A DNA stretch of 64,000 nucleotides from Haliotis rufescens (taxonomy: Eukaryota). The stretch lies in the NCBI RefSeq assembly GCF_023055435.1, contig NW_025963891.1, forward strand, positions 9,982,001 to 10,046,000, given 5' to 3'. The notes beneath the pieces were generated by a model that made no database searches, was not told where the DNA came from, and saw nothing but the letters and a program-made list of their open reading frames with translations. This document shows positions 13,440 to 61,580 of the stretch, in pieces (within the stretch, counting starts at the first letter, position 1; each line of letters begins with the position of its first letter). Made by a program: the position numbers and the translations under genes.

Positions 13440-16400
13440 CTCAAGCTAGGGTGACAGCATGTGCAACTCGACACTAATTAATTTTCCCATATGTCTTTTA
13501 ATGGGTGCGTTTGGCAATTTTGAAGAGATCATTACCCTTTTTAGTTGGTGCTAATAACGCCAATTGCCTGGTTAAAAGTGTCAGACATGTAAAACTGATA
13601 TAGTCAACATGCCTATTCCAATATGCTTAACAACATGTGTTTCGCAATAGCCATCATGTGTATATCGATATTGGCACCCCTTTACATTATATTCTTCATA
13701 ATTTATTTTTAATGCATCAGTTTCTTGTCGTGATGAATAACAATACTATTTATTGCCAAGGACATAATGTCGGCGGTCGTATTTTAAGAGTAAGGTAATG
13801 TGTAATGTGTTCAATTCTGATTTGGAAGCTGCGATAATGAGAGACATTAGAAATTTAACAGAATTCAAAACATCTATGACAGAGAATAATCAGTTTCACA
13901 TTTCTACCGAAAACATAAGGTGTAACAGCTAAAATAATGATGAATATTACATGTATGCAATCGACTATAGACCAGACACTCCAGTGATTGATATTATGAG
14001 CAGTGAGCCACGTCGTCGGGGTACGACGCCAGGCTGTCAACCAAGACAACAAGCCTGACCATCCGTCCCTATTAAAGTAAGTGCCAGCAGGTGTGAGATT
14101 TTCTACTTTAATATGTATTGTATTTCATCCTTACCTAATCTGAAAGTACTATGTTTTTACTCTGACGATTGCAAACTATGACGTCATCATAAGGAGAAAT
14201 GACAAAGTTCAGCTTTTCTTGTTTGAAGATGTTCACGATTGAATATGCCTGTGAGATAACAGAACATTAAGCCCCACTACCAATTAGATGTACACATATC
14301 AAAATGGCATTAAATTTTGAAAGAAATGGCTGAATAATGGACATAAATTTCAGATTTCAGCGTTGTCAGAGTTGAAAGATCAAATAAAGGTCAGAACCTA
14401 ATACATGGCAAAAGCGAACACACATGTTGAACCCCACTACTAACTACATACATACATACATACCAAATTTCGTTTGAGTAATAGCCAGAAATAGGTTTTC
14501 CAATATGATTTGCGTAGTGGCCATATTGAAATCGGATTTCAACCTTTCCTTTAGATTCAGGTGGCATCATTTGTTGGAAGTTTCAACTTCATTGGCCCAG
14601 TGGATTCTGAAGAAATTATGTTTGTATTGGTAGGAAATGCAATTTGAGAGAATTTGGGAGCATGGTCAAAGGGATGAAAACATATATTATTATTAAAAAA
14701 GGAACACATATATGTTGAGTCCTGCAACCTTGTTGAGTACCATGTTTTATTACATTTTGTCCAGATTTCCCACAAGCCCTTACAGCTTTCATTGTAGTCA
14801 GCCCATGATGGAAACAAATACAACAACTCGCACACAAAAAAAGGAAGTTTATGTTGATGCACCCTACTACCAGCTTCCCATGCACCATCATTCATTCCAT
14901 TTTAAACATAATGGCTAACTGACGAAATAACGCATGGCGCCTGACGGACAAACACTCCTCTGTTTAAAATATGTCGCAAATATCCAACCATTCACGTGAA
15001 CTACGTCCTAGGCGTCTTTATTATTGTGTGTATAGCGAGGATTGTATATACGGAAATGGGCGGAGATGATTTCATTTACCAAACTGTTATTCTTGCACTT
15101 TTGACTTACAGTAATGTAACGTTTCGAGATCAAACTGAGCATCGCTTCATGTCGTTCTAAATGCTTCTTATGCTGGGCCAACAGATAAGGTTGGACAGCA
15201 CTGACACTGATACTATCTGGAAACTGTTAATTCTATTCCTTGTTGTTTCAATATCATAATTGTATCGTGAAAGACTTAAATATGAATTTATTACATGATG
15301 TTTATTATCATTTAATTTAATTCACTACAGAACGCCTTCATTGTTCTTGAAATGACGTTTAACCAAAGTGGTCAACGTGTGACACATCAAACTGACACTC
15401 CTTGTGGATCGATGCTCATGATGTCAATCACTGGATTGTCTGGTCCAGACGCGATTGTTTAGAGACTGCCATCATACAGCTGGAATAATGCTGAGTGCGG
15501 AGTTACACAACAAACAAACAAAAAACAGAGTCATCGCGAAAAACACTTAAGTTGGTGTGTAATAAAAAACATCAATCACGAATCATAAGGACGAACTTCT
15601 GAAATGCTGAAAACTCCTGCGCTTCTCAATAACTCTTTTATCTATTAGTGTGAATTCATATTTCTCCCTGGATGTTTTATCTTAAACTGCCTGAATACTT
15701 TGCGTTCATGCCAACATCCTTTCCTACAGTGTACGTGATCACTGTTGGGTGACCAATACAACAGAAAATGTCTTTCCACTAATGCAAACGTAACTGCCAT
15801 ATACACTTTAATAGAATAGAGCAACAAAAACATGTATGTGATCTAGATTTCAAGTGTGGGTGTGCAAGTGACGGTGGTTCAGAGNNNNNNNNNNNNNNNN
15901 NNNNNNNNNNNNNNNNNNNNNNNNNNNNNNNNNNNNNNNNNNNNNNNNNNNNNNNNNNNNNNNNNNNNNNNNNNNNNNNNNNNNNNNNNNNNNNNNNNNN
16001 NNNNNNNNNNNNNNNNNNNNNNNNNNNNNNNNNNNNNNNNNNNNNNNNNNNNAATTGAGTCTGGGCCAGACAATCTAGTGATTTGTATCATGAACATCGA
16101 TCCACTTAATGTGGGATACGATATGACGCATCAACCAAGTCAGTGAGCCTGACCTCCTGATCCCGTTAGTCGCCTCTTTCGACAAGCATAGTCTCCTCTT
16201 ACGACATGGGTTGCTGAAGATCTGTTCTAACCCGTATCTTCACGGCGGATTCCAAAACTATGTATATCATCGTCATATTAGTGATAGACAATTTCCTTTA
16301 GTTGGTATGGCCTTGTGCTAGTATGGCAGTAAGCCCACTGAGATGCCATGCTGCAGTATAAAATGTCTCCCTACTCAAAAACAGTATACTGACTAAGCGG

Positions 16401-32018: not shown

Positions 32019-35000
32019 CACCTTTCAAAACATACAAATGATTTCTATAATTTTAATCTTTTTGTATTTGGAATATCTACTGATGGAAATGTTTTAAGTA
32101 ACATGTAGTTGTACCTCGAATTAGAAGTTGACAATTTGTTCATTTAAGCCCATGATAAAGTCATGATACCTGTGATATCCAATTCTTATATGAATGGAAT
32201 CGATAAACTGTAAAACGTTTTTCTTACCGCGTTTTCAACAATGTAATCCAGAACCCCGGGTATCAGAGCACGGACCTCAGCAGTACACTAAAACAAAGTA
32301 AAGAAGTCAGCAGTTGAATATTGTTTTAAAACAACTTTAACAACTACGTTGTGCATTATCAAATTAATTGGCATTCGCTACACATGCATTTATACGTGTT
32401 ATGGAAGTCTTGCATCATTTCGTTTCACAGCAAGTTATTTCTAAGAAGACAAAAGAAATAATGCAAACCAATATGTGTGGCTGAAACAATATGTGTGTCC
32501 AGGTATCATGTAGCCACTGTATGTTTAAGAAGAAGCAACAACAAGTTTATTCAGGGACTACAACGATCTTAGCTGCTTAAGATTGGTCCGGACCAATTGT
32601 AAGTTTCGATTGTAACTTACAATGATCTTAGCCTACAATCGTTTTGTGCAAGTGGACGACGATTGTACCCGAAGCCAAAGATCGCGATCTTAAGGATTTA
32701 TAATAATTGTAGCGCTAAGATCGCTTTGTGCAAGTGGAACCAGGTATGCTATAGCCACTGTATGTTTAAGAAGAAGCAACAACATTAACATGATAGTCAA
32801 TGTGTTTGACTGAAATACGTATTTCAATAGTAAGAAGAGTGGAACATAAGAACAAATAGGTAAACACTTACGACTTCCTCCAGAAAATAAGCAGAAAGTG
32901 GACTGCAAATTACATGGTCGAAATACGTCTCCACTTCCTCCTGCATAATACATTAGACACACTTGTCATTTAGGGCCTAATCCAACAACAACATTAGTAA
33001 TGATTGCTTATTTGAATTATACACGTTGACATGTGCCCTGTGCGATAATTGGACATGTTGTCTCGGTAACTGTTTGCGATGGTATACACAAAGTTTATCA
33101 GACCAACAACTTGTCAAGCTAATTCGATTAAAATGCAATTTATGGACAGTAAGGAGGTACAAAAACTTATTCACGCTAATTCAATATGAGCGTTTTACCT
33201 TCACTTCATCTGTGTTCAAACTCGCAATGAAACTATCAACGACTTCAATGCAGTTTGTACAAGAATCATCACCCTGGAAGAAAACAGAACCCCTTTGTGT
33301 ATGTTTTTTAATTGTACATAAGTTGGGTTTAATCACACAATGACTCGTCGACTATTGCGCATACAGAATAAACAATCACTGTTTTTAGTCAATGACAGGT
33401 ACACCAATGACTCACTCATCGAGGTCAACATAAATAGCTATACAGAGATGTGTTGTGAGTATCTCTTAAACCCTGATCTATGTTTCACGGGGGTTCAAAT
33501 GTCAGATCTTTGGTTTGTCAAAAGCATCGCTGTGCCATTGGTGCTAATTACTATCTGTGACATTCGTCCAACTTTAATATAACTGACATACAGTTTAAAG
33601 CGGGAATAAATCCAACACATTCACACAAGTCATTACCGTTTGTACATCGGCATTTGTAACCATCTTGAAGTGATTATTAAGCTTCTCAGGACACAACATT
33701 GCCAAACTGCACAAGACCTCAGGATCCTGAAACATATAGAATTAAATATTTTAAATTTACACTTTTAGTTTCTTTATCTTACATTAATATTTATATTCTT
33801 CCTGCTCTTCAGACGATTTCTGTTTGTAGTTTATAATTACTCACTTTCACGTGTTACATACAATGATAAATAGGCCATCATGTCTCCCCTGACTTACCGC
33901 GTTCTCCACAACATACTCCAGAAGACCTGGAACAAGCCCATGAACAGCAGAGTTACACTAAAACAAGAAGATACAATGGTAAGACTCGTGACATAATGGC
34001 AATACAGTATTCCATTCATATTGTCCTAAGTACATGTAAAGCCAAAATCCTACCTCTGTCAGGCGATTAGTCTCCAAGTCATCGTTTACATATTTTTTGC
34101 ACTACCTCATTGATAACATCTATGAACAATGTTGGGGAAATATTTTAGGAAAGAAGTAGGCATTCCCAAAGGCACCAATTGTGAGCCCCTTCTTGCTGAT
34201 GTGTTTCTTTATGCATATGAATCAGTGAGTGAGTGAGTGAGTGAGTGAGTGAGTTCGGTTTAACATCGCTTTTAACATTATTCCAGTTATATCACGGCGT
34301 GTCAGCTTAATCCGGGAGGAAAGCTCGAAGTGATGTAGGTCTCAGACGTTTACTACTTCGGTGAAACCCACGAGCACGGGTATGGTGCTGACAAATCTAG
34401 AAATCTGATCGGGACGAGCCGGGATTCGAACCTTCATTCATAGGTTTCTGGCGTGCCCAAGGGACGCATCTCTGCACATCGAATCGCGGCGACTTCGACG
34501 ATTGGGCCACCCGACTACTTTTTTCAGAGATTTCTTATGAATATGGAAAGAGTTTTTCTTGGCATAAGTCTACTATTTCATGGTTCAACAATTTCCATTC
34601 TACCATCATCACAACATTTACTTACAGTTTCTGTGAGGAGGTATGAGGATAGATGAGAACATATTTCATCCTTTAGGAATTGTTCTACCATCTCCTGAAA
34701 TACAAACAAAGTTGCCCTTAAGCTGCCCACATTGTACCGAGGTAGGGATTCGGACGGCGAACGCGTTAACCTCTAGCCTTCCACCTTTTTAGACGTTTTC
34801 TCGTTAGTGAATCTAACTGAACTCGTTTTCATAGTTGAACTAAATTCGTGTTCATGCTTTATCATGGAAGGATTCAACGGCTGCACAATTATTACTTTAT
34901 TCCCTTCTCATCAAACCCCGTCATCAACGTAGGCAATTGTGAAATTGGAAAAGGGAAGAAGTTCCTTTTCATATGTCTTGCAAGTTGATGTGCCTTTCCG

Positions 35001-42211: not shown

Positions 42212-45200
42212 TTACATCCGCCTCAAGAAAAGATTCTGAGAAAAATATAAGTCTTTAGTTGAGTCATGCATGTGCATCAGTGCCAAAATGTATTACTTCA
42301 TTGTAAACTTCTATAACTTAATATCCATTAACAAGGTAGACACAATTTTATAAATAACATCTTCTTTTATTCTGTAAAAAGCGACGTTTCGGTATAGATC
42401 ATTTTACCGTTGTCAAGCAAGACTGAATGAGGGACATAGTACAGAATATATATAGTAGGTGGAGGATTAACAGTAATAACAGTTGCATATGTGAGTGGGA
42501 TAGCATAGGTATGTCTGTACCGAAACGTCGCTTTTTACAGTATTAATGAAGTTGTTATCCATAAAATTGTGTCTGCCTTGTCATCCGTCAACTTCTAAGT
42601 AATGCCTATCAAACAATTTAATATCCAATAGCATAGGTCAGGCTTGAGATAAAATTCATTCACAAGAAATATCATATTTAAGATAGTTCCTAATGATATA
42701 GACATTTTGTAAATGTGTTTATTACTTTGATATGGCTCAAAGGGATTGATGCATACCTTGCTCAATGGTGATCATAACTTGTAGACTTAAGTATTTCATT
42801 AATATCTGAAAAATATATAAATGACATCAATTGCAGGACAAACTATCATATCAAACCATTTCCTAAATATGTAGTCACAGTTGAATCTGTCTAGTCATAT
42901 GATGACAAACTTGATTCCTGTAGTCTGAGACATTGATATTGGATAGCATGATTGTTTGGCGTTAACATCACATAAAATCATTTATTGGGAGAAATGCTTT
43001 AATTCAGATCAATTGTCTGTATGATTATAATACAATTTTCTATATTTCTAATGTTTTTTATTTTGTTCTTACAATGCTACCTTTTGAAGGAAGTCTGTCA
43101 CCAGTGCAGTAGATGGATTCCCTTTAACATTCTCTGGGCATAATGTGTCGAGAGTGCAAAGGCCCTCGGGATCCTAAAGCTCGTGACGATTGGCATCAAG
43201 ATTACAACATTAAAAAATACTTCAGATTAAAAAAGAATAACATAATTTACTAATCTGTCTAACTAAACAATAGACCGAAATGTCAANNNNNNNNNNNNNN
43301 NNNNNNNNNNNNNNNNNNNNNNNNNNNNNNNNNNNNNNNNNNNNNNNNNNNNNNNNNNNNNNNNNNNNNNNNNNNNNNNNNNNNNNNNNNNNNNNNNNNN
43401 NNNNNNNNNNNNNNNNNNNNNNNNNNNNNNNNNNNNNNNNNNNNNNNNNNNNNNNNAGTAACAGGTTGTTGTACCTCGAATTAGTAGTGGATAATTTGTT
43501 CATTTAAGCCCGTGAAAAAGTCATGATACGTGTGATATCCAATTCTTATATGAATGGAATCGATAAACTGTTAACGTTATTCTTACCTCGTTTTCAACAA
43601 TGTAATCCAGAACCCCGGGTATCAGAGCACGGACCTCAGCAGTACACTAAAACAAAGTAAAGAAGTCAGCAGTTGAATATTGTTTTAAAACAACTTTAAC
43701 AACTACGTTGTGCATTATCAAATTAATTGGCATTCGCTACATATGCATTTATACGTGCTATGGAAGTCTTGCATCATTTCGTTTCAGAGCAAGTTATTTC
43801 TAAGAAGACAAAAGAAATAATGCAAACCAATATGTGTGGCTGAAACAATATGTGTGTCCAGGTATCATGTAGCCACTGTATGTTTAAGAAGAAGCAACAA
43901 CAAGTTTATTCAGGGACTACAACGATCTTAGCTGCTTAAGATTGGTCCGGACCAATTGTAAGTTTTGATTGTAACTTACAGTGATCTTAGCCGGCAATCG
44001 CTTTGTGCAAGTGGATGACGATTGTAGCCGAAGCCTAAGATCGCGATCTTAAGGATTTACAATAATTGTAGCACTAAGATCGCTTTGTGCAAGTGGACCC
44101 AGTTATCATATAGCCACTGTATGTTTAAGAAGAAGCAACAACATTAACATGAAAGCCAATGTGTTTGACTGAAATACGTATTTCAATAGAAAGAAAAGTG
44201 GAACATAAGAACAAATAGGTAAACACTTACGACTTCCTCCAGAAAATATGCAGAAAGTGGACTGCAAATTATATAGTCGAAATACGCCTCCACTTGCTCC
44301 TGCACAATACATTAGACACACTTGTCATTTAGGGCCTAATCCAACAACAACATTAGTAATGATTGCTTATTGGAATTATACACGTTGACATGTGCCCTGT
44401 GCGATAATTGGACATGTTGTCTCGGTAACTATTTGCGATGGTCTACACAAAGTTTATCAGACCAACAACTTGTCAAGCTAATTCGATTAAAATGCAATTT
44501 ATCGACAGTAAGGAGGTAAACAAACTTATTCACGCTCATTCAATATGAGCGTTTTACCTTCACTTCATCTGTGTTCAAACTCGCAATGAAATTATCAACG
44601 ACTTCAATGCAGTCTGTACAAGCATCATCACCCTGGAAGAAAACGGAACCATTTTGTGTATGTTTATGAAACGTAAATAAGTTTGGTTTAATAACGCATT
44701 GAATTAAGGACCATTGTGTAAAAACAATCAACAATTATTTTTGCAAGTTTATATCAGAAACACAAATACCCCAATGATCCAGGTCAACATAACTAGCTAA
44801 TCATGGTTGTATCATCATCTGCGAGTGTCTATTGAATGGAGAGGCGCATTTCTCGGAGGTTTCAATTTTTCGTTTCGCTTAAGCATCGCCGTCCAGTATG
44901 TGCTAATTACCACTCGTGTCTTTCGTTCAGTTCCAATCCATCATGACATAATGATACTGACAGACTGATTCACACAATTCATTACCGTTTTGACATTGAC
45001 ATTTGTTTACTTCGTGAAGTGATTCCATGGGTTTTCAGGACACAACATTGCAAAACTACACAAGACCTCCGGATCCTGAAGCATAATTTTGTTTGTACAA
45101 TCACATATTTTAAATGTACATTTTAATCAATACCAAAAATTTCTTTTAAAATATCGATTCATATGTATCATACAGAAATATTATTTTCTTCCTACTATTC

Positions 45201-46805: not shown

Positions 46806-48521
46806 TTATAGGTGGAAGTATGGCATGAAACATGAAAAAATACTCAAAATCCCAATTCTGCCACTGTTACTAAAACCTTCTCATAAGAGACCTGCGAAGT
46901 TCCCACTTAGAATAGGTCTTCAGCAACCCATGGTTGCCGCTAAAGGCGACTATGCTCGTCGTAAGAGGCGACTAACGGGATCAGGTGGTCAGGCTCGCTG
47001 ACTTGGTTTGATGCATGTCATCGTATCCCAATTAGGTTGACAGATGTCCATCATGTCTTTAACTGGATTGTCTGGTCCAGACTCGATGATTTACAAACCG
47101 CCGTCATATAGCTGGAAAATTGCCGAGTGCGGTGTTAAACATCAAACAAACGACTAATTAGGCTATGGCCAAACAGACAGGAGCGTGCTGATACCATCGA
47201 TGCCAATTTGGTACCGTTTGATATCACAGAGAGTATCACAGTCATATCAGTCAAACACCAAATGACTCACATACATGCCATTGAAAATAGAGTGACGACA
47301 TTAAGAATATTTTTGCATCACTTTATCACTTTCATATTTAGAATTCGTCATACGTTCAATGAAAAAGTTAACAAGGGCGAACGAATTATTTTTGTGTGTT
47401 AAACACTTAGGTGCACCTACCATACCTTTACAGAAAAATATTCCCTAAATGTAGAAAGCATTTGGTTGTTGGTTAAGGCTACTGTGAACATATGTACTGT
47501 ACGTTTGATAAATATCAAGTCATGTTTACACATATACACATGAGTCACTGCTGTGCGTTTCCCCATAGTATCACAGTTCTCATTTATAAGCATCTGAATC
47601 TAACTATAAAGAGCTTAAAAGCGATTTTGGCTTTGATCATACTGAATAAAAGGTAAAAATGCAAACACATTAACTGTTCAAACATACCATCTACGTTTGC
47701 AGTATGTCACATCTAAGAACCGTTGTTTATTCAGCACTTTCCAGATGCCACCAACGTTAGCTTTGTTATAACCAGTGTTCAGGGAAATATTTATCACGTT
47801 ATTAAAAGGGATGTTCGTGCTCTAATTTGACAACATGTCACCCGGAAGAAAATGTGATAAAGCTTTCTTTTGGCATGGTTCAAGCGTCCAGGGCTGTCAT
47901 GATAAAAGTTACAGCACTTCTAAATCATACCTTAATTTCAGTGGGGAAGGTACACAGCGCGGATTAACGGGGTTCCACTGTACCTCGTCTTAGAAATTAT
48001 TATACACATGCTTAGCTACCAATGTGATCTAAAAGCGATTAATCATCTTTCAACAAAAGAAAACACATTGAAGAATATGAAGTTTAAGATCGAGTAGAAA
48101 CATACAATGTCATGTAAGAGTGAGTGCTGTCGGAAGAGCAGGACACGCCCTTTTCGCGAACACCTGACGTCATCACTGATGACATTAGTACACGTGTCAT
48201 GCATACGCCTTGAAACCAGTCTACCCTTTTGTACATAGTGAAAAAAAAATTCAAATCAAGAATATTAGAAATCGTTATGACCAGAGAGCTACTGATATTG
48301 TCACTGACAATAGTATTTTCCGCAAAACTAAAATGAATATTTGAACTATATTGGTGGCTGCAACTAACAATTTGACGCTCCCCACGAGTGGTTATTAAAC
48401 ATTTGTTTAAAAGGGAACGTTAACACAAAAATCAAGATATAAATCCAAATTGAGCACATTTAACTGGCAATCGAATATGATGCGCCTGACAAAAAATACT
48501 GCTGATAACGTCATGTAAAGT

Positions 48522-48876
48522 GAGGTGAGTTGAGGTGAAATTGGGTTTAACGTCGCGTCCAAGATTATTGCACTTATATAGCGACGTGCATGCACGTGTG
48601 TGTGTGTGGCTGCTTGTACTAGTACGGACTGATGCCGATTTATAGTGCTAGCTCACTGAGATACCATGCCGCAGTTTAACATGAATACCCCACTCAGACA
48701 CAGTATACTGACTCCGAGCCGACCAGTCCTTGTTTTAGCCCCTTAATGCCGAGCGCCAGACAGGGTAACAACAAGTACAATCTTTTAACGTCTTTTTGTA
48801 TGACGCGGCCCGGGATCGAACCCCGGACCTTCCGCTCTCCGGGCGGACGCTCTACCACAAGACCACGGAGGCGGTC
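48522..48876 (-). mobile_element. Full-length tRNA-derived SINE with Meta-domain-like core
   Basis: A box TGGTCTTGTGGTAGAGC, B box GGTTCGATCCC, core gactggtcggctcggagtcag...cagtgagctagcactataaa, TSD gtcatgtaaagt on both sides. Related fragments at ~4930-5085 (each unit) and ~53760-53925. Confidence 0.8.
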
Positions 48877-49394: not shown

Positions 49395-50582
49395 ATGGCT
49401 GTGAAAGTGTTCAAACGTGTCACGAGCATTGTTTTCGGCACTATTGTTCTCTTACAAATTCACGGGAAGACGCTTGCTGGACAAGGGGGACTTTTAAAAC
49501 ACCTTCTTGAAAGCTACAATCAAGAGGTTTTTCAAACAAATGAAGTGATGGATATTGGAATATATTTGACCGTATCCCAAATAGGTGAACTTGATGAACA
49601 GCGACAATCATTCTCCACCAGTGGATGGTTCACGTTCCAGTGGGTGGATGATTCCTTAAAGTGGAACGTTACAGATTTCAATGGTACAGAGCAAATATAT
49701 CTGTCTAGTCAAACAATCTGGACCCCTGATTTGGTGCTCTTAAATTCTGCCACAGGAATTAAGCTTTTCAGTCACCAACAAGTACCTGTAAGCGTGGAAC
49801 ACACCGGATTAGTAGTATGGTACCACGGTGATCTCTTCCAGAGTCAGTGCGACTTTGATATTGTCCATTTTCCGTTTGATACTCAGATTTGCAATTTTGT
49901 TCTATCAACCTGGGTTACAACGTCGGACAAAGTTAAGTTAACACCTCTTCCGCATCAGTTGGATATCTATACTACGGGTGAGAATGGATTATGGCAATTA
50001 AGAAATATAACAACATTTCTAAAGGAACATCAGTACCCTCGACTTATTGTAGAACTGACCCTGAAACGCCGACCATCATATTACGTATACAACCTGATAA
50101 TCCCCATCACGCTTCTATCTCTTCTCAGCTCCCTGGTGTTTGCTCTGCCAATGGAGTACGGTGACAAAGTGGCTCTGTCCATGACGGTTCTACTCTCCTT
50201 CGGCGTGTTCCTGACTCAGATGACCACAAACATGCCAAAAACGTCCCGACAGACGTCCTACCTCACCATCTACCTGACCGCTCTGCTCACCCTCAGCTCC
50301 CTCTCTGTGGCCATGATGATCCTCATTCTCAGGATCTACAAGCGTCAAGGAAAGGTGCCCAAAGTGCTGCAGAAATGGGTTGTTCTCTGGAAATGTTTTT
50401 CGTCAAATAAAAAGCAGACTGCGGCTGTGGATCAAGATCATGCGGATGACGTAAGTACAGAGGATCCATCCTGGAAGGATGTGTCTGCCACGCTTGAAGC
50501 CATGTGTCTGAGGTTATTCCTCTTCATGAATATCAGTCTCGGCATCGTTCTCTTCACTGTACTCATAGTATTAACAAATTGA
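49395..50582 (+). CDS. Intronless Cys-loop ligand-gated ion channel subunit, nicotinic acetylcholine receptor-like, non-alpha (395 aa)
   Basis: Signal peptide, WTPDL (loop A region), Cys-loop CDFDIVHFPFDTQIC (C-x13-C with FPFD), pre-M1 LKRRP, four hydrophobic TM segments, M2 GDKVALSMTVLLS. No vicinal Cys-Cys in loop C. AATAAA follows near 50804. Confidence 0.96.
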   Translation: MAVKVFKRVTSIVFGTIVLLQIHGKTLAGQGGLLKHLLESYNQEVFQTNEVMDIGIYLTVSQIGELDEQRQSFSTSGWFTFQWVDDSLKWNVTDFNGTEQIYLSSQTIWTPDLVLLNSATGIKLFSHQQVPVSVEHTGLVVWYHGDLFQSQCDFDIVHFPFDTQICNFVLSTWVTTSDKVKLTPLPHQLDIYTTGENGLWQLRNITTFLKEHQYPRLIVELTLKRRPSYYVYNLIIPITLLSLLSSLVFALPMEYGDKVALSMTVLLSFGVFLTQMTTNMPKTSRQTSYLTIYLTALLTLSSLSVAMMILILRIYKRQGKVPKVLQKWVVLWKCFSSNKKQTAAVDQDHADDVSTEDPSWKDVSATLEAMCLRLFLFMNISLGIVLFTVLIVLTN

Positions 50583-51579
50583 CTGTTGACTGGCTTTACA
50601 GTTTCATGCAACAGGGTAACCTTTGGTTCCCTGGGGTTGATTTTATCATGAGATGAGCTTCTTCCTATCCCATCTGGATGAGAATTCTTAAGGTTTGCAT
50701 TTGTAGACAGAGTTAATATCCTTTGACAAGCACAAGGGATACGTCTCGCAGACTGATTCCAAATGTGTCGGTGCTTGACAACCAACGGCACAAACTGCTG
50801 TCTAATAAAAAATGGCGCGCCTTTGATCTCGCCCTAAACCATGTTAGAATTCAATGGAACCTAGTGTATGTTTATGGAATCTCCGATTAAGTGATCACTG
50901 GAGCTTATATATATGAACAATTATTGTAAATAGCAAAAAAAGGTAGGTGTCCGTTTTCCGGAAACCTTCCAGATACCTTCCCACTTTGAATCCTACCTGG
51001 AAATATTCCGGCAACCTTTGTTGTTCAATTTAGTGTGAAACACATACAAAATATTTTTGAAAATTATCAAGAAGACTGAAAATATCCCGAAGGTTTCCGA
51101 AAGGTATTCAGATGCAAGTTTTGTTCTTGTTTTGTTTCTTGTAAATAATGTTAGCCTAGGCATATCTGATAGCTGCAGTAATATTTCGTGACATTTTAGT
51201 TCGAAGTATCCCCTGAAAGCTGAGATTTCTGCGCATGTACTTTTGGAGAAGACAATTTTCAAACAACATTCATTAATATTTGTTTTGGGATCTTTAGTGT
51301 GTTTAATAAACGAAAGGAATTTCTAGTAGACGTAAGGACAAAAGGATGCACAGTTGTTAGTCGGCCTTAGTAAGTCGAATGTTTAGCAATTTTGGAAAAA
51401 GATTAACGCCTCTATGGGAAACAGTAAGAGTAGTGGTTACTGTAATTTTGTGGATTATTTTAGCAAATTGGCTAATCTAATTGGTATGGTGTTTATCTAT
51501 AACGGGTGCCCGGGTATGGTCGGGTAAAAGGGTGGTGGGTACCCGGGTAGTAAATTTAGACTCGTCCCAGCCCTAGTTT

Positions 51580-52010
51580 ACACCCTCTGGTAGTTTTATA
51601 GAATGTCAAAGAACTTTATCTGAACAGGCAATGAAAGCTTTATTTTCATTGTATAGAGTTATCAATAGTATATTTCTGTTTATATTCAGTACGAGTTATT
51701 TCAATCACTAATTCCACCCATATTGTGTTATGATTGTGAGGTGTGGGGTTTTACAGAGGCTTATGCAATGGAAAGATTTATTAAAAAGATATTAATTGTT
51801 AAATTATCTACAGCATAGACATATGTTTATGGTGAATTCGGGGTACTGCCATTGATAAGTGTGCGGTTTGTTAGATTTGTTAAATATTGGATGAAAATCT
51901 TAAAGTGTGATCCAAATAGATATAATAGTATTGTGTATAAAGCTATTTTAGAAATGATGTTAAGTCGTCCTAACGTAGAAAGTTAGGCATTTCTGGTAAA
52001 AAAAATATTA
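51580..52010 (+). mobile_element. Degenerate non-LTR retrotransposon (LINE) ORF2 fragment
   Basis: FTPSGSF...KALFSL...LFQSLIPPILCYDCEVWGF...YGEFG, post-RT region of LINE ORF2, with stops and frameshifts. Confidence 0.7.
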
Positions 52011-54065
52011 GTTTTGGAATCATCACAGAAACATCAGTGTCAACTATCCCGGAAAGGTGCAACAATACCATCGTTGGAGATTAGGAATGTGCCAATGGTG
52101 AGACATTGCCTTATATGTGATATGTGGATGTTGCGGTTGAAACTAATTGTTTATGGTTCGTCATCCCAGGCAGTGAGTACATCAATCGTGTTCCCGTTTT
52201 ACTGGACCTTTGTTTCCTCAAGTGAGCAAAATGCACACACACTGGAATCTTGCCTCCCGGGGTATTAGTTTGCAGGACAAGGGACCTACAAGGAAAGATG
52301 GGACCCTGGGACTTATGTGTACCTGTGAGGTGTCACTCGTTTTTAACTCAAAACAGAACACGACAGTCACGTGTTCACTCTACAAGAAACTGCCTTATAG
52401 AGAAAATTGTGTCATGCTTCACCAGGGCCACAAAGACATCCATACCACCGGGGCTTGAGATAAACCCCTGCATTATTCAGCTGTCAGTACAAGAGGTCAC
52501 TACAAGCCCCTTTTAATTGTCAAACCTGACCAACAAGACCATAGTTGTTTCCCCTAGGACAATCATCTTCGAGATACAATTAGTCCAGATTTAGAAAGTT
52601 GCACCCATCAACGTGGAACAGATTGCCACTGAAGTAAAACAGCACAAGCTGAAGAAGGAGAACATATCTCATAAGGTTTCTGAGGAACAGAAGAAGCTGA
52701 GTGAAGAGCTAATTCAGAAATACGGCGACGTGTTTTCTACCGGAGATTTAGATTTTGGCCACTACACTGTTTTTTAGGGATTGCCAGATCGTACACCAAT
52801 CAAGGAAAGAGATGGGCGCATACCACCATCTATGTTTCAGGAGTTGAAGGAATATCTCCAACAGTAACGTGCTTCTGGAATCATCAGACGTTCTTATATT
52901 ATAGCCCATGGGCCTCTTATTTAGTCCTTGTATGCAATGGTGATGGATCTTTTGGTTTGTGTATTGATTTTAGATCACTCAACCAGCGCACTGTAAAGAT
53001 GCCTACGCTTTACATGTTGAAGAAATCTTCAAGAGACTAGCAGTTTTCTCACTGTTATGGACATGCATTCGGGTTACCATTAAACAGAGACAGGGGAAGC
53101 TTACAAAGCAGGAATCGCCTTTGCAGTTGGACTTCTAGGGTTTTACGAGTACAATTTAAGCTAATGTCATTTGAACTCGTAAATGATCCAGATGGAATAT
53201 ATGTTTGGAAGTCTTCACTTGGAAATCTGCCTGATTTATCTGGATGATCTCATCGGGTTTCCTGATTTTAAAGAGCACTTGAAGGTTAAATAGACTTGGG
53301 GTCAAACTCAAGAATCAGCCATCAAGCAACTGAATGGCGCTTTGTCAAAGCGACCTTTTGTTGGATATGAGACTTATGGCTTTCTTTTGAAGTGCACACA
53401 GATCCACATTCGCAAAATTAGGTGCAATCCTCTACCTAGAAAAAGAAGGACAAAAGAGGGTCATCGCTTATAACGGCCAATAAAGCAATAAAGCCGAGAA
53501 GAACTGTCCATCAGACAAGTTGGAGTTGCTGGAATTATAAAGGGCAGTGATTGACTACGACCACCTCTACAGAAATCAGTTAACTGTAATAACGGACAAC
53601 AACCTTTCACAAACGTCTTGAGTTCACCAAAATTGGATGCTACAAGACACAGGTGGATTGTAGCTCTTTCCTTATTCAACTTTGATATTAAGTATCATTC
53701 AGGTAAATGTAACGCAGATGCTGGTATGCTCTTCGGGTTGTCACAAGAAGACGAGAGAGAGGTGAGGTGAGGTGAAATGGGGTTTAATGTCGCGTCCAAG
53801 ATTATTGGACTTATATATCGACGTGCATGTACGTGTGTGTTTGTGTGGCTGATTGTACTAGTCCGGACTGATGCCGATTTATAGTGCTAGCATTTTTACA
53901 TGAATACCCTACTCAGACACAGAAAACTGAGAGAGAGACGATGGTTGCTACATCTGTAAAGGTGATCTGCAATACTTGTCCAACATCCAGAGTTTATGCT
54001 TCGCAGATGAACTTATTGCAGACGTTGAACACAGGAACAACACAACTTGTTTCACTCTAGTCACT
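52010..54065 (+). mobile_element. Degenerate Ty3/Gypsy LTR-retrotransposon pol relic
   Basis: Fragmentary frames: KYGDVFS.GDLD.GH, RIPPSMFQELKEYLQ..GIIRRS.SPWAS, DGSFGLCIDFRSLNQRT (RT); LGAILY..KRVIAY, TDNN, KLDATRHRWIVALS.FNFDIKY.SGKCNADA (RNase H). Confidence 0.85.
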
Positions 54066-56384
54066 CTACAGGAAGACTATCTTGATGTTCATATTTTGCA
54101 CTTCATCTCGGTGTTTTTTATGGTGAACCGCAGGGTTATTGGAGTAATATTAACAGGCTTTTCAGGTGCCTGTCGTGAACCTGACATACAGAATATAAGG
54201 CTAGTGTTGCTATGAACGAAGTAAAACAGTAATATGTGAAAGATGTGTAAAATACTTACTAAGTATGGTATATGTTGAGTGTTTGTATTATTGTATTACA
54301 CCTGTTTTCTGCATTATTTCAGAACCTCGTGAATACACATGTCAGAAAGAAATTTCTTTCCTCTTTTATTCAATCTATGCCAATCATGTGTCTGCGTATA
54401 ATATTTTGTCGTATTTCTAATTCATGTATTCCACACATGGTAGTGCGGCTGTGTTTATAGTATATTTATTTATTCAGGACTATTCACTGCATTTTTTCAT
54501 TGTATGAGGTTCTGCCTTGCGTCCCTGAGAATAAGTATAATATATATTATGTTGTATTATTTATGCATGATTTATTAGAATGTGTTTTATCTAGGAGGAT
54601 TTGTTAAAGTCTGATTGTTTGTCAGTTATTTTGCTTGTTTGTTTGTTATTTAACGCCGCATTCAGCAATATTCCAGCTTTATGACGGCGTTCTGTTAATA
54701 ATCGATAATTACAAAGCAGTATTTATTTTTTCCTTTAAGTAATGACATTGGTTTGGCTTTGTCATGGCAATGTTTTACACAGACACTTTCTTGAGGTAAC
54801 ATAAGAATAAAATAATACTACATTATCCCTACGGATATTTGTGTTACATCATAGAGAAATAAGAAATAGGTCAATGAAATAAGTTAAATACACCAACACA
54901 CATAAACACTATGACAAAAACGATGTAAAAGCACCAATCAACAATAAGTGAGAAAAGAAAATGGAAATATGGGAGGCATAAATTAAAAGGTTCTCAAGTT
55001 AGACAAATGTGGTAGATCTAGACAATAATAACACATGGTTTCATAGTTAAGGAAACGAATACTGACTGGTACGAATGATTGACGAGCTCAATTTTGTGTC
55101 CTTTGTATTTGTTTAAAACAGACAGATCCCCACACCAGCAGTGGATCGGAAAGTGAACGTTAACATACTTTGTATAAAGATATAAAACAAGGATGGAAAT
55201 AGTGGGATCAATATTAAAATCTTAAGCGACAAGGACATTATAATCTTTGTCGGACCTTTTTATGTACCAAAAACATGTGTATTTACTTCAGGGAACGTAT
55301 CAATAGGAGAAATTGTTGCTTACAGTGAGACTAATCTTTATGTACATTGTACTTGCTTATTATTTTCTTATATTAAAAGGATGATAGAAAATGTGTCACA
55401 TGTAACAGAAATACGAGTACAAATGACTAAAATCTATATTGTTCATAATGATGAATTTATTTCATGAATGCTAAAATCTTAGAATCGTAGAACAGCATCA
55501 TCTCTACGACAGACAAGATTGATACTGGTACGATTGATCATTGACTTAATATTGTGCAGCTTGTTAGTTGTTTGTGTAAACCCAATTTGATTGCAAACAC
55601 TGATTGACATATTGTCTTATAGTTTTCCAAAGAAGAAGCATTGAATGATTGTTTACAGAACTTAATTGAACGAAAATTGTTTTAATGGTACCAGTTGTTT
55701 TATATCTCTTTCAAAACAAAACCAGACACATTATCATGGCCACACGCACGAACACTGAGTTGGCTAAAATAACTCATAACATCATTTTTTGTTATCACCA
55801 AATTTTGTTTTGTATCTTTAATACTTTTCACTCGCGAAGGTTTTTGTCGTTATTTGGTTTCGAAACTTTAGCTCTATACAAAGATCTTATAATTTCATGC
55901 ATAACAGTTTTTTTAACAGATTTAACTTTCATGATCGCCGCTACAAAAAAAACTCGCTTTGTAATCCAGGGCTTATTGTTGGGATAGATCTTGATTGTCT
56001 TAACAGGTACAATAGAGCCAACGCAAAAGGTTATATGTCACTGTGGGTCAAGGTCAAAATATAAAGATGTAAAACTCAGAGTAAACCTATAAAAGGCTAT
56101 AAAAGTTATCCCATATAAAATGAACCTACTCCATCAAAGATACATTACATTATTTCAATGATTTTTGTTGGCAGCCTATACCGAGACAGCCTACTACCGT
56201 AACGGCAACTCGTATACAATATACTACTCCAAAAAAATAAAAGAACATCCAATGGTTTCGAATTACCGTAGTTAAGCTGTCATACCATGATAGATTAACT
56301 GGAGTAATATGTAGGAATCGGATGTTCTTTAACTTCTTTTCGTTAGTGTGTGTCAAAACGTTACTCATTTTATGACCTTCCACC

Positions 56385-56648
56385 GACCCGTGAAGATTCC
56401 CGTGTAGAATAGGTCTTCAGCAACCCATGCTTGCCGTAAAAGGTGACTATACTTGTCGTAAAAGGCGACAAACGGGATCGCGTGGTCAGGCTCGCTGACT
56501 TGGCTGATGCATGTCATCGATCCCAATTGCGTGGATCGATGCTCATGATATTAATCACTGGATTGTCTGGTCCAGACTCGATAATTTACAGACCGCCGTC
56601 ATATAGCTGGAATACTGCTGAGTGCGATTAAACAACAAACCAACAAAC
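56385..56648 (+). mobile_element. SINE with GTCGTAAGAGGCGACTAA (Nin-domain-like) core
   Basis: Consensus gacccgtgaaga...cttcagcaacccatg...ggattgtctggtccagactcg...gctggaata...aaacaacaaacc. Other copies: 46889-47150 (+), 38163-38417 (-, unit-4 specific), 4648-4860, 16053-16247, 27241-27457, 38565-38762 (-), plus partials at 2250-2352 and 4083-4195. Confidence 0.75.
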
Positions 56649-57172
56649 CATCTGACGCTCACTATTCTAAAGAAAGAACAATGGTAGGTTGATTAAAATC
56701 TACGTTATGATAGTTGCACAGAAAATCGTTTAATCCTCAAAACTAAAATGAACCTATTTGATTACATCGATGTCTGCAACCACTTATTTGACGCTCCCTA
56801 CCAGTGCTTATCACACATTCATTAGGAGAAGCTATTTACACAATAATCAAGACATGAAGTCAGTCTCTGTGTACTTACTTTGTTTCTACAAAGAGAATCG
56901 ATTCACCAGACAATTTGCAGTCACAAACTATTAAACGTGTATTAAATATATCGGCATGTATTCTACCAGTTATATCAAGAACGGTTACTTTGATCTTTTC
57001 TTCTCAGTAGCATGGCGTTTAGCATTTTAGGAAATCAAAATACATTCTCTTCTATTTATTTGCTGTATGTTGGTCATATCATATCCCAAGGACTAGAAAG
57101 CTAGTTGTAATTCAGTCAATATTTATCAACGTTAACTGTGTTTACTACGTCATCGATGTGGGGAAATGTTAA

Positions 57173-59269
57173 CCCCCTGGATGCCAAGTTATATTTCTGG
57201 CGCACATTTTCATAAGATTTGAAAAGTGGACGTTGTAAGAAAATTCGGTTTACTTGGTCTACATCCGACTATAAAATGACGCAGGGATGTAGAATATCAA
57301 ATTTCCATTTTGTTGGTATAAAAATGAACTGGTAGGAAAACAGAAAGTGCTAAGTTTTGCCCGAGAGTTTGTTATACGTAAAAAAATCCAGCTAATTTCG
57401 CCACTTCTTATCGAATACCAATAAAATTACTTTCCAATGATTTATTTTTTATTTAACATCTTGATGGAAACTGTGAGCTGACAATATACTGCCTAATGTC
57501 TGAACGACGTGATGATAAATGAAATGGATGTGTACGCTTATGGTGGACGTTGTACATTCGATTTGAAAAAAAGCTTGCCATAAAGGAAGAAAATCGATTC
57601 AGCTATGACGTTAAAGACGACAGGCAGGTATACACAAGCACAAATAAAAAGGGGCACAACCCTGCTATGCTTTGAACTAGTCCATTCTAACTCAGATGAG
57701 AGTTTGCTGTGCATCAAAATAATAAGGTTTTGTATTTTCTGGGTTCACTATGTACCAATCTATACGAAACACAGGCATTGATAATGAAACCGTGAACGTT
57801 TAGGTATTGTAAAAAAATCGTAAGAAATGATGAAATCGTACTACATAAAAAGGGAAGTAAAGGGGAAAGCGATGTCCCTATCTAGAGGGTAAATTAGTCT
57901 TCAGATTGCCCCACTGACAAAAACAAAAACACAGACTATTTCAAAACAAGCAAACATATTTTTAATATAGGCCATGTGTTTGTTCATTATCATGTGTTTA
58001 TTTTTCTTCGTCTCATATATAAGAGATGTAATAACCGGCGACGATATAACCGGAAAGGATTTTATAAAAACTATCCCATATAGCGGAAAGTTCTCTTCGG
58101 CGTTAGTGTTTGCGTAATTTCGAAACCACTCAAAACGATTCCGGGGTTGTTGTTGTCCCACTGTCCCACTGTCTTTTTAGGGGTGACCGACGCTCTATGG
58201 ACACACCATGATTTCAATGAATAGAAGTATGAACAAACATGCAGTCATGTTTTTTTTTATTTATATCGTATTTGATTTCACATGATTTCCATATCACAGC
58301 ACATGAACATGATTGAATTTCACAATCAATATTCTAATATCACAACAGTTTTTAATGTCTCAACATCAAATTTAAAATACAACTCGACAATTTATAATAA
58401 ACCAACATGACATTTCATGATCATCACAAACGTACAAAATTGGCCACAGCATCTGCAAATTCAATTGCTGACTTTCTTCCCTCACGTAAGTGTCTCTTTT
58501 CTGCATCAAGTCTGGTCTCAAGATGTCGATACTTAGATCTCCTGGGTCTAAGCATACCCCCACCTACAAGCTGCAGGATACTGGCCTTGGTGTAGGCTTG
58601 TTCTGTCCTAAAAAAGTCATTAATTCTGTAGATGTTGGGGTGGGGACTGCCCATGATGGAGGTGAGCTTGAAGTGCCAGCCCTCTACGTGGTTGGTCGTT
58701 CTTGGGCCGACGGTGTCGTGGTTATTCCAGGTGCTTCGTCCATGATCGCCCTCCACCAAAATTTCAGTCACATCGTCAGTAAATCGGAGAACTCTGGCAT
58801 CATGGAGAGGGGCACTTTCGTTACGGCTATACTCATAACACGCAGAAGTGTACATTAGTGAACACGGTCACTCATATTATAAGAGCCTGGCATAAGTGCT
58901 AATTGGTGAACACGGTTCGATCTGGCAGGTGGGTGAACTTAACTCACCCACCAGCACCCCTACCAATAGTGTACCCAAACCAATCACTCTATTCTTCTAC
59001 GCCTGACTGGGTTTGTTGTTATAAGAAATGTTGGGAAACCGGGGGCACCCGATTAAATACATGACAGATACCCGTGATCATTAATATCCTTTTTTTTGTA
59101 ATTGCATTCATTTTCAATAAATGTGCTTCGGTCGTCATATCACAGACCAGATAATTTGCCTCAGAATTCACAACTGTGAATTGTGTGAATGATGTATTTT
59201 AAATATTATTCGACTTCCATGTGAGGGTTGATGAGAAAGGATACATATATCCCTGTGCCATACAGGGGG
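57173..59269 (-). mobile_element. DNA transposon with TTAA target duplication and CCCCCTG termini, carrying a MULE-type transposase C-terminal fragment (58424-58855)
   Basis: ttaa|ccccctggatgcca at 57169 and tgccatacaggggg|ttaa ending 59273 are inverted repeats (16/18 match including TTAA). Internal ORF has W...RTTNHVEGWH..L......HPNIY..I..F..EQ, the motif C-terminal to Mutator-like DDE domains. The paralogous empty site is near 49267. Confidence 0.75.
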
Positions 59270-59394
59270 TTAATGGAAGTGTTAAGAGCGTTATCCGCAA
59301 CACTCTTTCATGACCTGCATAAACCGATCGATCACCTTTATTATAAGCTTCTAGTCACCACTGTTCAGACAAGGGAGACGAGTCAGAGGAAATA

Positions 59395-60594
59395 ATGGCT
59401 GTGAAAGTGTTCAAACGTGTCACGAGCATTTTTTTCGGCACTATTGTTCTCGTACAAATTCACGGGAAGATGCTTGCTGGACAAGGGGGACTTTTAAAAC
59501 ACCTTCTTGAAAGCTACAATCAAGAGGTTTTTCAAACAAATGAAGTGTTGGATATTGGAATATATTTTTCCCTATCCCAAATAGTTGAACTTGATGAACG
59601 GCGACAATCAGTCACCACCAGTGGATGGTTCACGTTCCAGTGGGTGGATGATTCCTTAAAGTGGAACGTTACAGATTTCAATGGTATAGAGAAAATATAT
59701 CTATCTAGTCAAACAATCTGGACCCCTGATTTACTGCTCTTAAATTCCGTCAAAGGAATGAAGCTTTTCAATGACCCACAAGTACCTTTATGCGTGGAAC
59801 ACACTGGATTAGTAGAATGGGACCACGGTGATCTCTTCCAGAGTCAGTGCGACTTTGATATTGTCCATTTTCCGTTTGATTCTCAGATTTGCAATCTTGT
59901 TCTATCAACCTGGGTTTCAAGGTCGGACAAAGTTAAGTTAACACCACTTCCGCATCAATTGGATACCTATACTACGAGTGGGAATGGATTATGGCAATTA
60001 AGAAATATAACAACATTTCTAAAGGAACTTCAGTACCCTCGACTAATTGTAGAACTGACCCTGAAACGCCGACCATCATATTACGTCTACTACCTGATAA
60101 TCCCCATCACGCTTCTATCTCTTCTCAGCTCCCTGGTGTTTGCTCTGTCCACAGAGTACGGGGACAAAGTGGCTCTGTCCATGACGGTTCTACTCTCCTT
60201 CGGCGTGTTCCTGACTCAGATGACCACAGACATGCCAAAAACGTCCCGACAGACGTCCTACCTCACCATCTACCTGACCGCTCTGCTCACCCTAAGCTCT
60301 CTCTCTGTGGCCATGATGATCCTCATTCTCAGGATCTACAAGCGTCAAGGAAAGGTGCCCAAAGTGCTGCAGAAATGGGTTGATCTCTGGAAATGTTTTT
60401 CGTCAGATCAAAAGCAGACTGCTGCTGTAGATCAAGATCATGCGGGTGACGTAAATGCCAAGGTGAGCACAGAGGATCCATCCTGGAAGGATGTGTCTGC
60501 CACGCTTGAAGCCATGTGTCTGAGGTTATTCCTCTTCATGAATATCAGTCTCGGCATCGTTCTCTTTACTATACTCATAGTTTTAACAAATTGA
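59395..60594 (+). CDS. Intronless Cys-loop ligand-gated ion channel subunit, nAChR-like non-alpha, paralogue 2 (399 aa)
   Basis: Same architecture as 49395-50582 (CDFDIVHFPFDSQIC, GDKVALSMTVLLS). About 90% amino-acid identity by manual alignment, with a 4-aa insertion in the M3-M4 loop. Confidence 0.96.
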   Translation: MAVKVFKRVTSIFFGTIVLVQIHGKMLAGQGGLLKHLLESYNQEVFQTNEVLDIGIYFSLSQIVELDERRQSVTTSGWFTFQWVDDSLKWNVTDFNGIEKIYLSSQTIWTPDLLLLNSVKGMKLFNDPQVPLCVEHTGLVEWDHGDLFQSQCDFDIVHFPFDSQICNLVLSTWVSRSDKVKLTPLPHQLDTYTTSGNGLWQLRNITTFLKELQYPRLIVELTLKRRPSYYVYYLIIPITLLSLLSSLVFALSTEYGDKVALSMTVLLSFGVFLTQMTTDMPKTSRQTSYLTIYLTALLTLSSLSVAMMILILRIYKRQGKVPKVLQKWVDLWKCFSSDQKQTAAVDQDHAGDVNAKVSTEDPSWKDVSATLEAMCLRLFLFMNISLGIVLFTILIVLTN

Positions 60595-61137
60595 CTGTTG
60601 ACTGGCTTTACCGTTTCATGCAACAGGGTAACATTTGGTTCCCTGGAGTTGATTTTATCATGATATGAGCTTCTTCCTATCCCATCTGGATGAGAATTCT
60701 TAAGGTTTGTATTTGTAGACAGAGTTAATATCCTTTGACAAGCACAAGGGATACCTCTCGCAGACTGATTCCAAATGTGTCGGTGCTTGACAACCAACGG
60801 CACAAACTGCTGTCTAATAAAAAGAAGGCGCGCCTTTGATCTCGCCTTGAACCATGTTAGAATTCAATTGAACCTAGCAATTTCTAATAGACGTAAGGAC
60901 AAACAGGATGCACAGTTGTTAGCTGGCCTTAGTGAGTCGAATGTTTAGCAATTTTGGAAAAAGATTAACGCCTCTATGGGAAATAGTAAGAGTAGTGGAT
61001 ACTGTAATTTTGTGGATTATTTTAGTAAATTGGCTAATCCAATCGGTATGGTGTTTATCTATAACGGGTACCCGGGTATGGTCGGGTAATAGGGTGGTGG
61101 GTACCCGGGTAGTAAATTTGGACTCGCCCCAGCCCTT

Positions 61138-61580
61138 GTTTACACCCTCTGGTAGTTTTATAGAATGTCAAAGAACTTTATCTGAACAGGCAATGAAAGC
61201 TTTATTTTCATTGTATAGAGTTATCAATAGTCATAAGTATATTTCTGTTGATATCCAGTACCAGTTATTTCAATCACTAATTCAACCGATATTGTGTTAT
61301 GAATGTGAGGTGTGGGGTTTTACGGAGGCCTATGCAATTGAAAGATTTATTAAAAAGATATTAAGTGTGAAATTATCTACACTATAGGCTTATGTTTATG
61401 GCGAATTCGGGGTACTACCCTACTACCAAGTGTGCGTTTTTTTAGAATTGTTAAATATTGGATGAAATCTTAAATAAAATAGATAAGTTAGTATTGTGTA
61501 CAAAGCTCTTTTAGAAATGATGTTAAGTCATCCTAATATAGAAAGTTGGGTTCTTTCTGGTAAGAAAAATATTAAACCAA
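61138..61580 (+). mobile_element. Degenerate LINE ORF2 fragment (duplicate)
   Basis: Second half of ORF 60932-61387: FTPSGSFIECQRTLSEQAMKALFSLY...LFQSLIQPILCYECEVWGF. Confidence 0.7.

What the first reader, a model, noticed from the sequence alone, without database searches (positions are those of the whole stretch)
49480..60070. Receptor paralogues differ mainly in ligand-pocket loops while the pore is almost invariant
Manual alignment gives about 29 substitutions in the ~200-aa mature extracellular domain versus about 9 (plus one indel) in the ~170-aa TM and cytoplasmic part. The M2 and M3 helices are identical. Changes cluster at beta1 (YLTVSQIG/YFSLSQIV), after loop A (ATGIKLFSHQ/VKGMKLFNDP), loop E (VSVEHTGLVVWY/LCVEHTGLVEWD), loop B (WVTT/WVSR), loop F (IYTTGE/TYTTSG) and loop C (H/L). 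Several are radical (V>E, Y>D, T>R). Inference: diversifying selection on ligand specificity.
Basis: partly seen in the sequence, partly recalled or inferred. Interest (0 to 1): 0.7.

Follow-up and report, generated by a model that had tools for sequence, protein, structure and literature searches.

The report
Abalone receptor copies retuning ligand pocket
Two neighbouring, recently duplicated genes for acetylcholine-receptor-like ion channels, most similar to abalone proteins, keep a conserved pore while their predicted ligand pocket changes about twice as fast as neutral DNA, which likely reflects selection for new, probably non-acetylcholine ligands, as is already known for octopus taste-by-touch receptors.

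Summary
The count is right: genes A (49395-50582) and B (59395-60594) are intact, intronless Cys-loop subunits differing at 29 extracellular and 9 TM/cytoplasmic residues plus a 4-aa indel. Extracellular dN/dS is 1.15, TM/cytoplasmic 0.25 (contrast P=0.009). Gene conversion does not explain it: synonymous divergence matches flanking DNA. The title overstates: only 11 of 29 changes are at pocket positions (enriched, P=0.010), and TM/pore-flanking changes exist (N279D, P252S). The pair alone cannot show selection (pocket omega about 2, P about 0.05). With sister tandem clades on the same contig it is supported: pocket omega 1.92 (P=0.001; 0 of 462 null simulations), 1.86 in the sisters alone (P=0.008), rest of the domain 0.44-0.55. 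The domain contrast is family-wide among 95 intact intronless paralogues. The subunits lack vicinal cysteines and the loop A tyrosine, so acetylcholine is an unlikely ligand. Ligand, tissue and expression are untested. A real but modest new instance.

The parts
49395..50582 (+). Gene A: intronless nAChR-like (non-alpha) Cys-loop subunit, 395 aa
   Evidence: ORF; Pfam PF02931 + PF02932 above cut-off; model pLDDT 83.5
49479..50075 (+). Gene A mature extracellular domain (res 29-227); start after the presumed signal peptide is inferred
49566..49586 (+). beta1 cluster L58F, T59S, V60L, G64V; only T59 is in the pocket set
   Evidence: strand E; mapping through
49749..49778 (+). Cluster after loop A (res 119-128, 6 changes); outside the pocket set
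49791..49823 (+). Loop E pocket positions S133C, V141E, Y143D (complementary face)
49911..49922 (+). Loop B: W173 kept; T175S, T176R
49965..49982 (+). Loop F: I191T, G195S, E196G (low model confidence here, pLDDT 57)
50010..50036 (+). Shortened loop C without vicinal cysteines; H212L; Y214 kept
50163..50231 (+). M2 pore helix (res 257-279) starting at the D-K of a GDK motif; identical in B except N279D at the last residue
50259..50342 (+). M3 helix, identical in A and B
50583..59268 (.). Spacer of the ~10-11 kb tandem unit, homologous to the spacer after B; used as neutral reference (6.3% mismatch over 5747 aligned bases)
59395..60594 (+). Gene B: paralogue, 399 aa, 89% identical to A; 4 extra residues in the cytoplasmic loop; P252S in the M1-M2 loop; lacks the N96 sequon
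59479..60075 (+). Gene B mature extracellular domain, with acidic E141/D143 and basic R176 at the predicted pocket

Best explanation
A and B are two of three young tandem copies of an intronless, non-alpha nicotinic-type channel subunit whose transmembrane pore is under purifying selection while the predicted ligand pocket is likely under mild diversifying selection, so the copies probably form cation channels tuned to different, probably non-acetylcholine ligands. Shown: intact genes, tandem duplication of a ~10-11 kb unit, the domain contrast, and pocket omega above 1 in this subfamily. Inferred: assembly into pentamers; cation selectivity (acidic -1' residue, GDK); binding at the subunit interface using the kept aromatics W78, W173 and Y214; and a shift from a hydrophobic complementary face in A (V141, Y143) to an acidic one in B and C (E141, D143), which would favour more polar or cationic ligands. 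An external (chemosensory) ligand is my preferred guess, about 35-40%, and is untested.
For:: extracellular 29 N/7 S against 9.5/11.5 (P=0.009). A-B pocket pN 0.118 against flank 0.063 (P=0.050), M1-M3 pN 0.024 (P=0.015); pocket omega 1.92 vs 1 in three young clades (10 genes; P=0.001), rest of domain 0.55, M1-M3 0.31; sister clades alone 1.86 (P=0.008); strict 9-site set 3.22 there (P=0.002); holds with extracellular-only calibration (2.01, P=0.002); 0 of 150 random 39-site sets reach it; pocket exceeds polar variable non-pocket sites (0.70, P=2e-5); 0 of 462 null simulations reach 1.92; 11-gene tree M8 vs M8a P=0.015, pocket 1.27 (P=0.044); in the sister clades the 11 pocket sites that differ between A and B have omega 2.15, the 18 non-pocket sites 0.33; sites 133 (C/S) and 141 (E/V) switch in parallel in a sister clade; an A-type contig in two runs carries a further change at site 133.
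Against: The trio alone is borderline (P=0.054) and its non-pocket extracellular omega is 0.87, cytoplasmic loop 0.93, as relaxed constraint would give. M2a vs M1a is not significant for the trio (P=0.27), either sister clade (P=1 and 0.098) or the 11-gene tree (P=0.30). In the other 14 clades pooled, pocket omega is 0.95 (P=0.37); only loop C exceeds 1 (1.57), and pocket beta-strand sites, loops A/B and loop F are below 1. B-C pocket divergence is low (pN 0.022), so nearly all pocket change separates A from B/C. The pocket set rests on recalled nAChR numbering and was drawn after I had seen the alignments; many partitions were tested. B lost a nearly invariant proline (P252S).
Confidence: 0.58

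Rival explanations
1. Relaxed constraint after duplication: the pocket of these subunits is simply free to drift, while the pore and fold are kept; the young copies may be partly redundant or decaying.
For: Trio extracellular omega 1.09 is not different from 1 (P=0.75); non-pocket 0.87; cytoplasmic loop 0.93. Pocket omega is about 1 in the other 14 clades. B has P252S. Broken copies lie next to the array, and 9 of 104 fetched loci lack an intact ORF.
Against: Pocket omega is significantly above 1 in the subfamily under calibrated tests; synonymous divergence equals flank divergence, so dS is not depressed; all three copies are intact.
Confidence: 0.2
2. Selection is real but acts on something other than agonist choice: the same interface residues govern which subunits co-assemble, and are the surface bound by antagonists and natural toxins of nicotinic receptors.
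For: Pocket and subunit interface overlap in this fold (established knowledge); 18 of 29 changes lie outside the pocket set. Oyster nAChRs are expressed in gill and gonad and respond to infection (PMC6896357, part 3).
Against: Non-pocket sites that differ between A and B are conserved in the sister clades (omega 0.33); the fastest sites match canonical agonist-contact positions (strict set omega about 3).
Confidence: 0.17
3. Gene conversion homogenised the TM half, or the copies are assembly artefacts (two haplotypes), so the contrast is not selective.
For: B shares the outgroup state at some sites where A and C agree, a hint of mosaicism.
Against: TM dS (0.10) is not lower than extracellular dS (0.056) or flanks (0.063); extracellular and TM trees of the trio have the same topology; A-type and B/C-type variants occur together in four laid runs of two studies.
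Confidence: 0.05

Closest known systems
Expanded intronless, tandem nAChR-like genes of molluscs (Jiao et al. 2019, PMC6896357)
   Same: Intronless, tandem, lineage-specific copies with degenerate acetylcholine-binding residues; this genome has at least 105 matches and 95 intact single-exon ORFs among 104 fetched loci.
   Different: That paper has 0 occurrences of 'selection', 'Haliotis' or 'abalone' in its main text; here selection is localised to the pocket.
Cephalopod chemotactile receptors (CRT1, CRB1)
   Same: Intronless nAChR-derived channels with pocket sites under diversifying selection (review PMC11526382; bioRxiv 2025.03.03.641191).
   Different: The model of A matches alpha7 better (Z 30.3, 30% identity) than CRT1 (Z 22.6, 24%) or CRB1 (Z 22.4, 20%); B/C pockets are acidic rather than hydrophobic; no expression or ligand data here; clade membership not tested.
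Alvinella Alpo4 orphan receptor (PMC10338036)
   Same: Lophotrochozoan nAChR-like subunit without vicinal cysteines and without a known agonist; Z 25.8.
   Different: Alpo4 keeps aromatics at loops A and C; A/B have Leu at the loop A position and a loop C about 5 residues shorter than alpha4.
Haliotis 'neuronal acetylcholine receptor subunit alpha-7-like' and related automatic annotations (P0003-P0008)
   Same: Nearest named homologues, 47-59% identity.
   Different: The names are automatic; alpha-subunit features are absent in A and B.

Membership tests
Cys-loop pentameric ligand-gated ion channel | Ligand-binding plus transmembrane domain, Cys loop of C-x13-C, four TM helices | tested here: met
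   Pfam above cut-offs; C152-C166 in sequence; four helices in the model; fold matches
Cys-loop pentameric ligand-gated ion channel | Assembles as a pentamer and conducts ions | not testable with these tools
   Needs expression and recording
Cation-selective (nAChR-type) branch | Acidic residue at -1' (GEK-type motif), not PAR-type | tested here: met
   G256-D257-K258; 84 of 95 paralogues have E and 11 have D at this site; motif meaning from PMC13174522 section 3.4.3
nAChR alpha subunit | Vicinal cysteines in loop C | tested here: not met
   None in A or B; 0 of 95 paralogues
nAChR alpha subunit | Complete aromatic box (loop A Tyr, loop B Trp, two loop C Tyr, loop D Trp) | tested here: not met
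   W78, W173, Y214 kept; loop A Tyr is L116; loop C shortened, second Tyr not assignable
Molluscan intronless tandem nAChR-like expansion | Single-exon coding sequence in a lineage-specific tandem array | tested here: met
   (a 5' untranslated intron is not excluded)
Cephalopod chemotactile receptors / CR-like clade | Falls inside the CR or CR-like clade | tested here: inconclusive
   No CR sequences were available for a tree; structure and sequence scores favour nAChRs over CRT1/CRB1, which does not place a fast-evolving clade
Cephalopod chemotactile receptors / CR-like clade | Pocket sites under diversifying selection | tested here: met
   Subfamily pocket omega 1.9; borderline for the trio alone
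Cephalopod chemotactile receptors / CR-like clade | Expressed in sensory epithelium, gated by environmental molecules and not acetylcholine | not testable with these tools
   No ligand assay; no usable RNA data

The most novel reading that the evidence does not exclude
A gastropod has independently turned retroposed nicotinic-type channels into a family of about 100 ionotropic chemoreceptors; this array is being retuned at the same pocket loops as octopus chemotactile receptors, with A and B/C sensing different external cues (algal, microbial-film or predator molecules).
Probability: 0.3. Interest if true: 0.75.

Novelty: new member of a known kind. Interest (0 to 1): 0.42.

Why it matters
What the hundreds of orphan nAChR-like genes of non-cephalopod molluscs detect is an open question that recent papers pose explicitly (PMC13174522). 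A pair 89% identical, with one pore and a few switched pocket residues (133, 141, 143, 176), is a convenient natural experiment for finding ligands, and gives a first quantitative hint that pocket-directed selection is not confined to octopus. Without expression or ligand data it remains a suggestive instance of a known pattern.

Tried and rejected
Site models without a prior site set: M2a vs M1a not significant for the trio, the two sister clades or the 11-gene tree. TM gene conversion: rejected. Multi-nucleotide mutation as the cause: all 36 extracellular differences between A and B are single changes per codon, and the adjacent pair 49568/49569 occurs separately in other runs. CR placement: CRT1/CRB1 were not among the 60 best sequence matches or the 30 Foldseek rows shown, which excludes nothing. 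The primary CR papers (Allard 2023, Kang 2023) are not held; I rely on a review and a later preprint. Pfam on 58 short ORFs of the upstream repeat unit and spacers gave no match above cut-off. Earlier-findings searches returned nothing on these receptors (8 of 22 notes shown; 0).

Full report
What is there. The window holds two long ORFs in this family, A (49395-50582, 395 aa) and B (59395-60594, 399 aa), 89% identical, each in one exon. Both carry the Cys-loop ligand-binding and transmembrane domains. Nearest named homologues are Haliotis (abalone) nAChR-like proteins at 47-59% identity. The own-genome search gave 105 scored matches of 436 candidates: a third copy C (L002, 91%) about 11 kb downstream, L004 (62%), and a sister array 2 Mb away (L005-L012). 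Of 104 loci fetched, 95 have an intact ORF of at least 370 codons and 9 do not. A, B and C sit in a repeated unit of about 10-11 kb with homologous spacers; broken receptor fragments follow C.

Checking the observation. Codon alignment gives 29 extracellular, 9 TM/cytoplasmic and 3 signal-region amino-acid differences plus a 4-residue indel. Extracellular: 29 nonsynonymous, 7 synonymous, dN/dS 1.15 (not above 1, P=0.47). TM/cytoplasmic: 9.5 and 11.5, dN/dS 0.25. The contrast is significant (P=0.009). M3 is identical; M2 differs only at N279D, the last residue of the modelled helix. B also has N233Y and P252S/M253T, and P252 is nearly invariant in the family.

Gene conversion. TM dS (0.10) is not lower than extracellular dS (0.056); whole-gene pS (0.068) matches the spacer mismatch (364 of 5747 bases, 0.063). 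Domain trees of the trio agree. So the contrast comes from nonsynonymous rates. In four public runs from two studies, A-type and B/C-type variants occur together (contigs, kind not recorded, species relation to this genome unknown), so the copies are not an artefact of one assembly.

Where the changes fall. I mapped residues through alignments to human alpha4/alpha2 and Torpedo alpha; the alpha7 labels and loop names are recalled. Kept: W78 (loop D), W173 (loop B), Y214 (loop C). Lost: the loop A tyrosine (L116), the vicinal cysteines, and about five residues of loop C. I set 39 of 199 positions as pocket (12 complementary beta-strand sites, loops A, B, C, F). Eleven of 29 differences fall there (P=0.010), among them all three loop E contact sites (133, 141, 143). 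Eighteen do not. The set was drawn after I had seen the alignments.

Is it family-general? In 26 independent young pairs (pS below 0.1, of 38 pairs formed), extracellular pN/pS is 0.55 and M1-M3 0.23, and 23 of 26 have higher extracellular pN. A faster extracellular domain is therefore ordinary in this family; the focal pair is at the high end.

Selection tests. I wrote a GY94/F3x4 codon model (not codeml; branch lengths from M0, rescaled). Free site models: M2a vs M1a was not significant for the trio (P=0.27), the sister clades or the 11-gene tree (P=0.30); it was below 0.05 in 5 of 13 clades with three or more genes, 2 of 13 after Bonferroni, recombination untested. M8 vs M8a on the 11 genes gave P=0.015. 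Fixed-site models: trio pocket omega 2.09 (P=0.054), rest 0.87; three young clades together (10 genes) 1.92 (P=0.001), rest 0.55, M1-M3 0.31; the two sister clades alone 1.86 (P=0.008), strict nine-site set 3.22 (P=0.002). Controls: extracellular-only calibration 2.01 (P=0.002); 0 of 150 random site sets reach the value; polar variable non-pocket sites 0.70; 0 of 462 null simulations reach 1.92, false-positive rate 5.2% at nominal 5%. In the sister clades the 11 pocket sites that differ between A and B have omega 2.15 and the 18 non-pocket sites 0.33. Against: in the other 14 clades (67 genes; 77 of 95 were used in all, the rest having no close paralogue or being left out as too divergent) pocket omega is 0.95, twice the rest (0.47) but not above 1; only loop C is (1.57, P=5e-7; 1.51 without insertion columns, where alignment is less sure), and the other pocket parts are below 1. 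B and C differ at only two pocket nucleotides.

Further variation. Among 40 of 42 variant rows shown, those absent from A, B and C make 7 nonsynonymous codons and 1 synonymous; two are pocket sites (133, 192). This is suggestive only.

Mechanism. The model (pLDDT 83.5) matches nicotinic receptors best (alpha7 Z 30.3, rmsd 2.0 over 342 residues; CRT1 Z 22.6, rmsd 2.7 over 280). The acidic -1' residue predicts a cation channel. Loss of alpha-subunit features in all 95 paralogues makes acetylcholine gating by these subunits alone unlikely, though they could serve as non-alpha partners. A has a hydrophobic complementary face (V141, Y143), B and C an acidic one (E141, D143), and B adds R176; sites 133 and 141 switch between the same residues in a sister clade. 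I infer retuned ligand chemistry on a constant pore. Ligand and tissue are unknown.

Literature seen. PMC6896357: abstract, parts 1 and 3 of 6, term search: molluscan intronless tandem expansions with diverse ligand domains. PMC11526382: passages: octopus CR pocket under diversifying selection. bioRxiv 10.1101/2025.03.03.641191: passages, supplements closed. PMC13174522: section 3.4 and passages: proposes divergent gastropod nAChRs as chemosensors, untested. PMC10338036: passages. Six searches (listings only) showed no paper on selection in abalone nAChR-like genes; subscription journals are mostly not covered.

Verdict. Observation partly confirmed, interpretation partly supported. A new member of a known kind, with moderate evidence of pocket-directed selection at subfamily level. 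Interest 0.42.

Noticed in passing
window 1008-45600: About four tandem copies of a ~11 kb unit, 83-98% alike, without an ORF of 150 aa; only sub-threshold Pfam hints (CUB-like at 33322-33579, E=0.0015). Possibly a multi-exon gene array; N stretches at 15885-16052 and 43287-43456 lie in it.
   Followed up: partly
G000:C113:10066500-10074200 (L107): Several broken fragments of the same receptor (frameshifted or truncated) around L004, and a lone copy of the first 32 codons near C113:10059650: birth-and-death turnover.
   Followed up: partly
G000:C246:5.60-5.86 Mb (12 genes used): Strongest free site-model signal in the family (M2a vs M1a P=2e-6; top sites near loops E, F, C); a better target than the focal pair. 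Recombination not tested.
   Followed up: partly
window 48509-48875: A high-copy short repeat upstream of gene A is absent from contigs of runs X2 and X3, which join across it: a presence/absence insertion.
   Followed up: no
window 60148-60153: Gene B replaces the nearly invariant M1-M2 loop proline (P252S, M253T); may alter or impair gating.
   Followed up: partly
window 52600-53760 and 60923-61387: Degenerate retroelement-like remnants in the spacers (judged by eye; no Pfam match), duplicated with the unit.
   Followed up: partly
L052, L081, L082: Intact paralogues lacking one Cys-loop cysteine.
   Followed up: no
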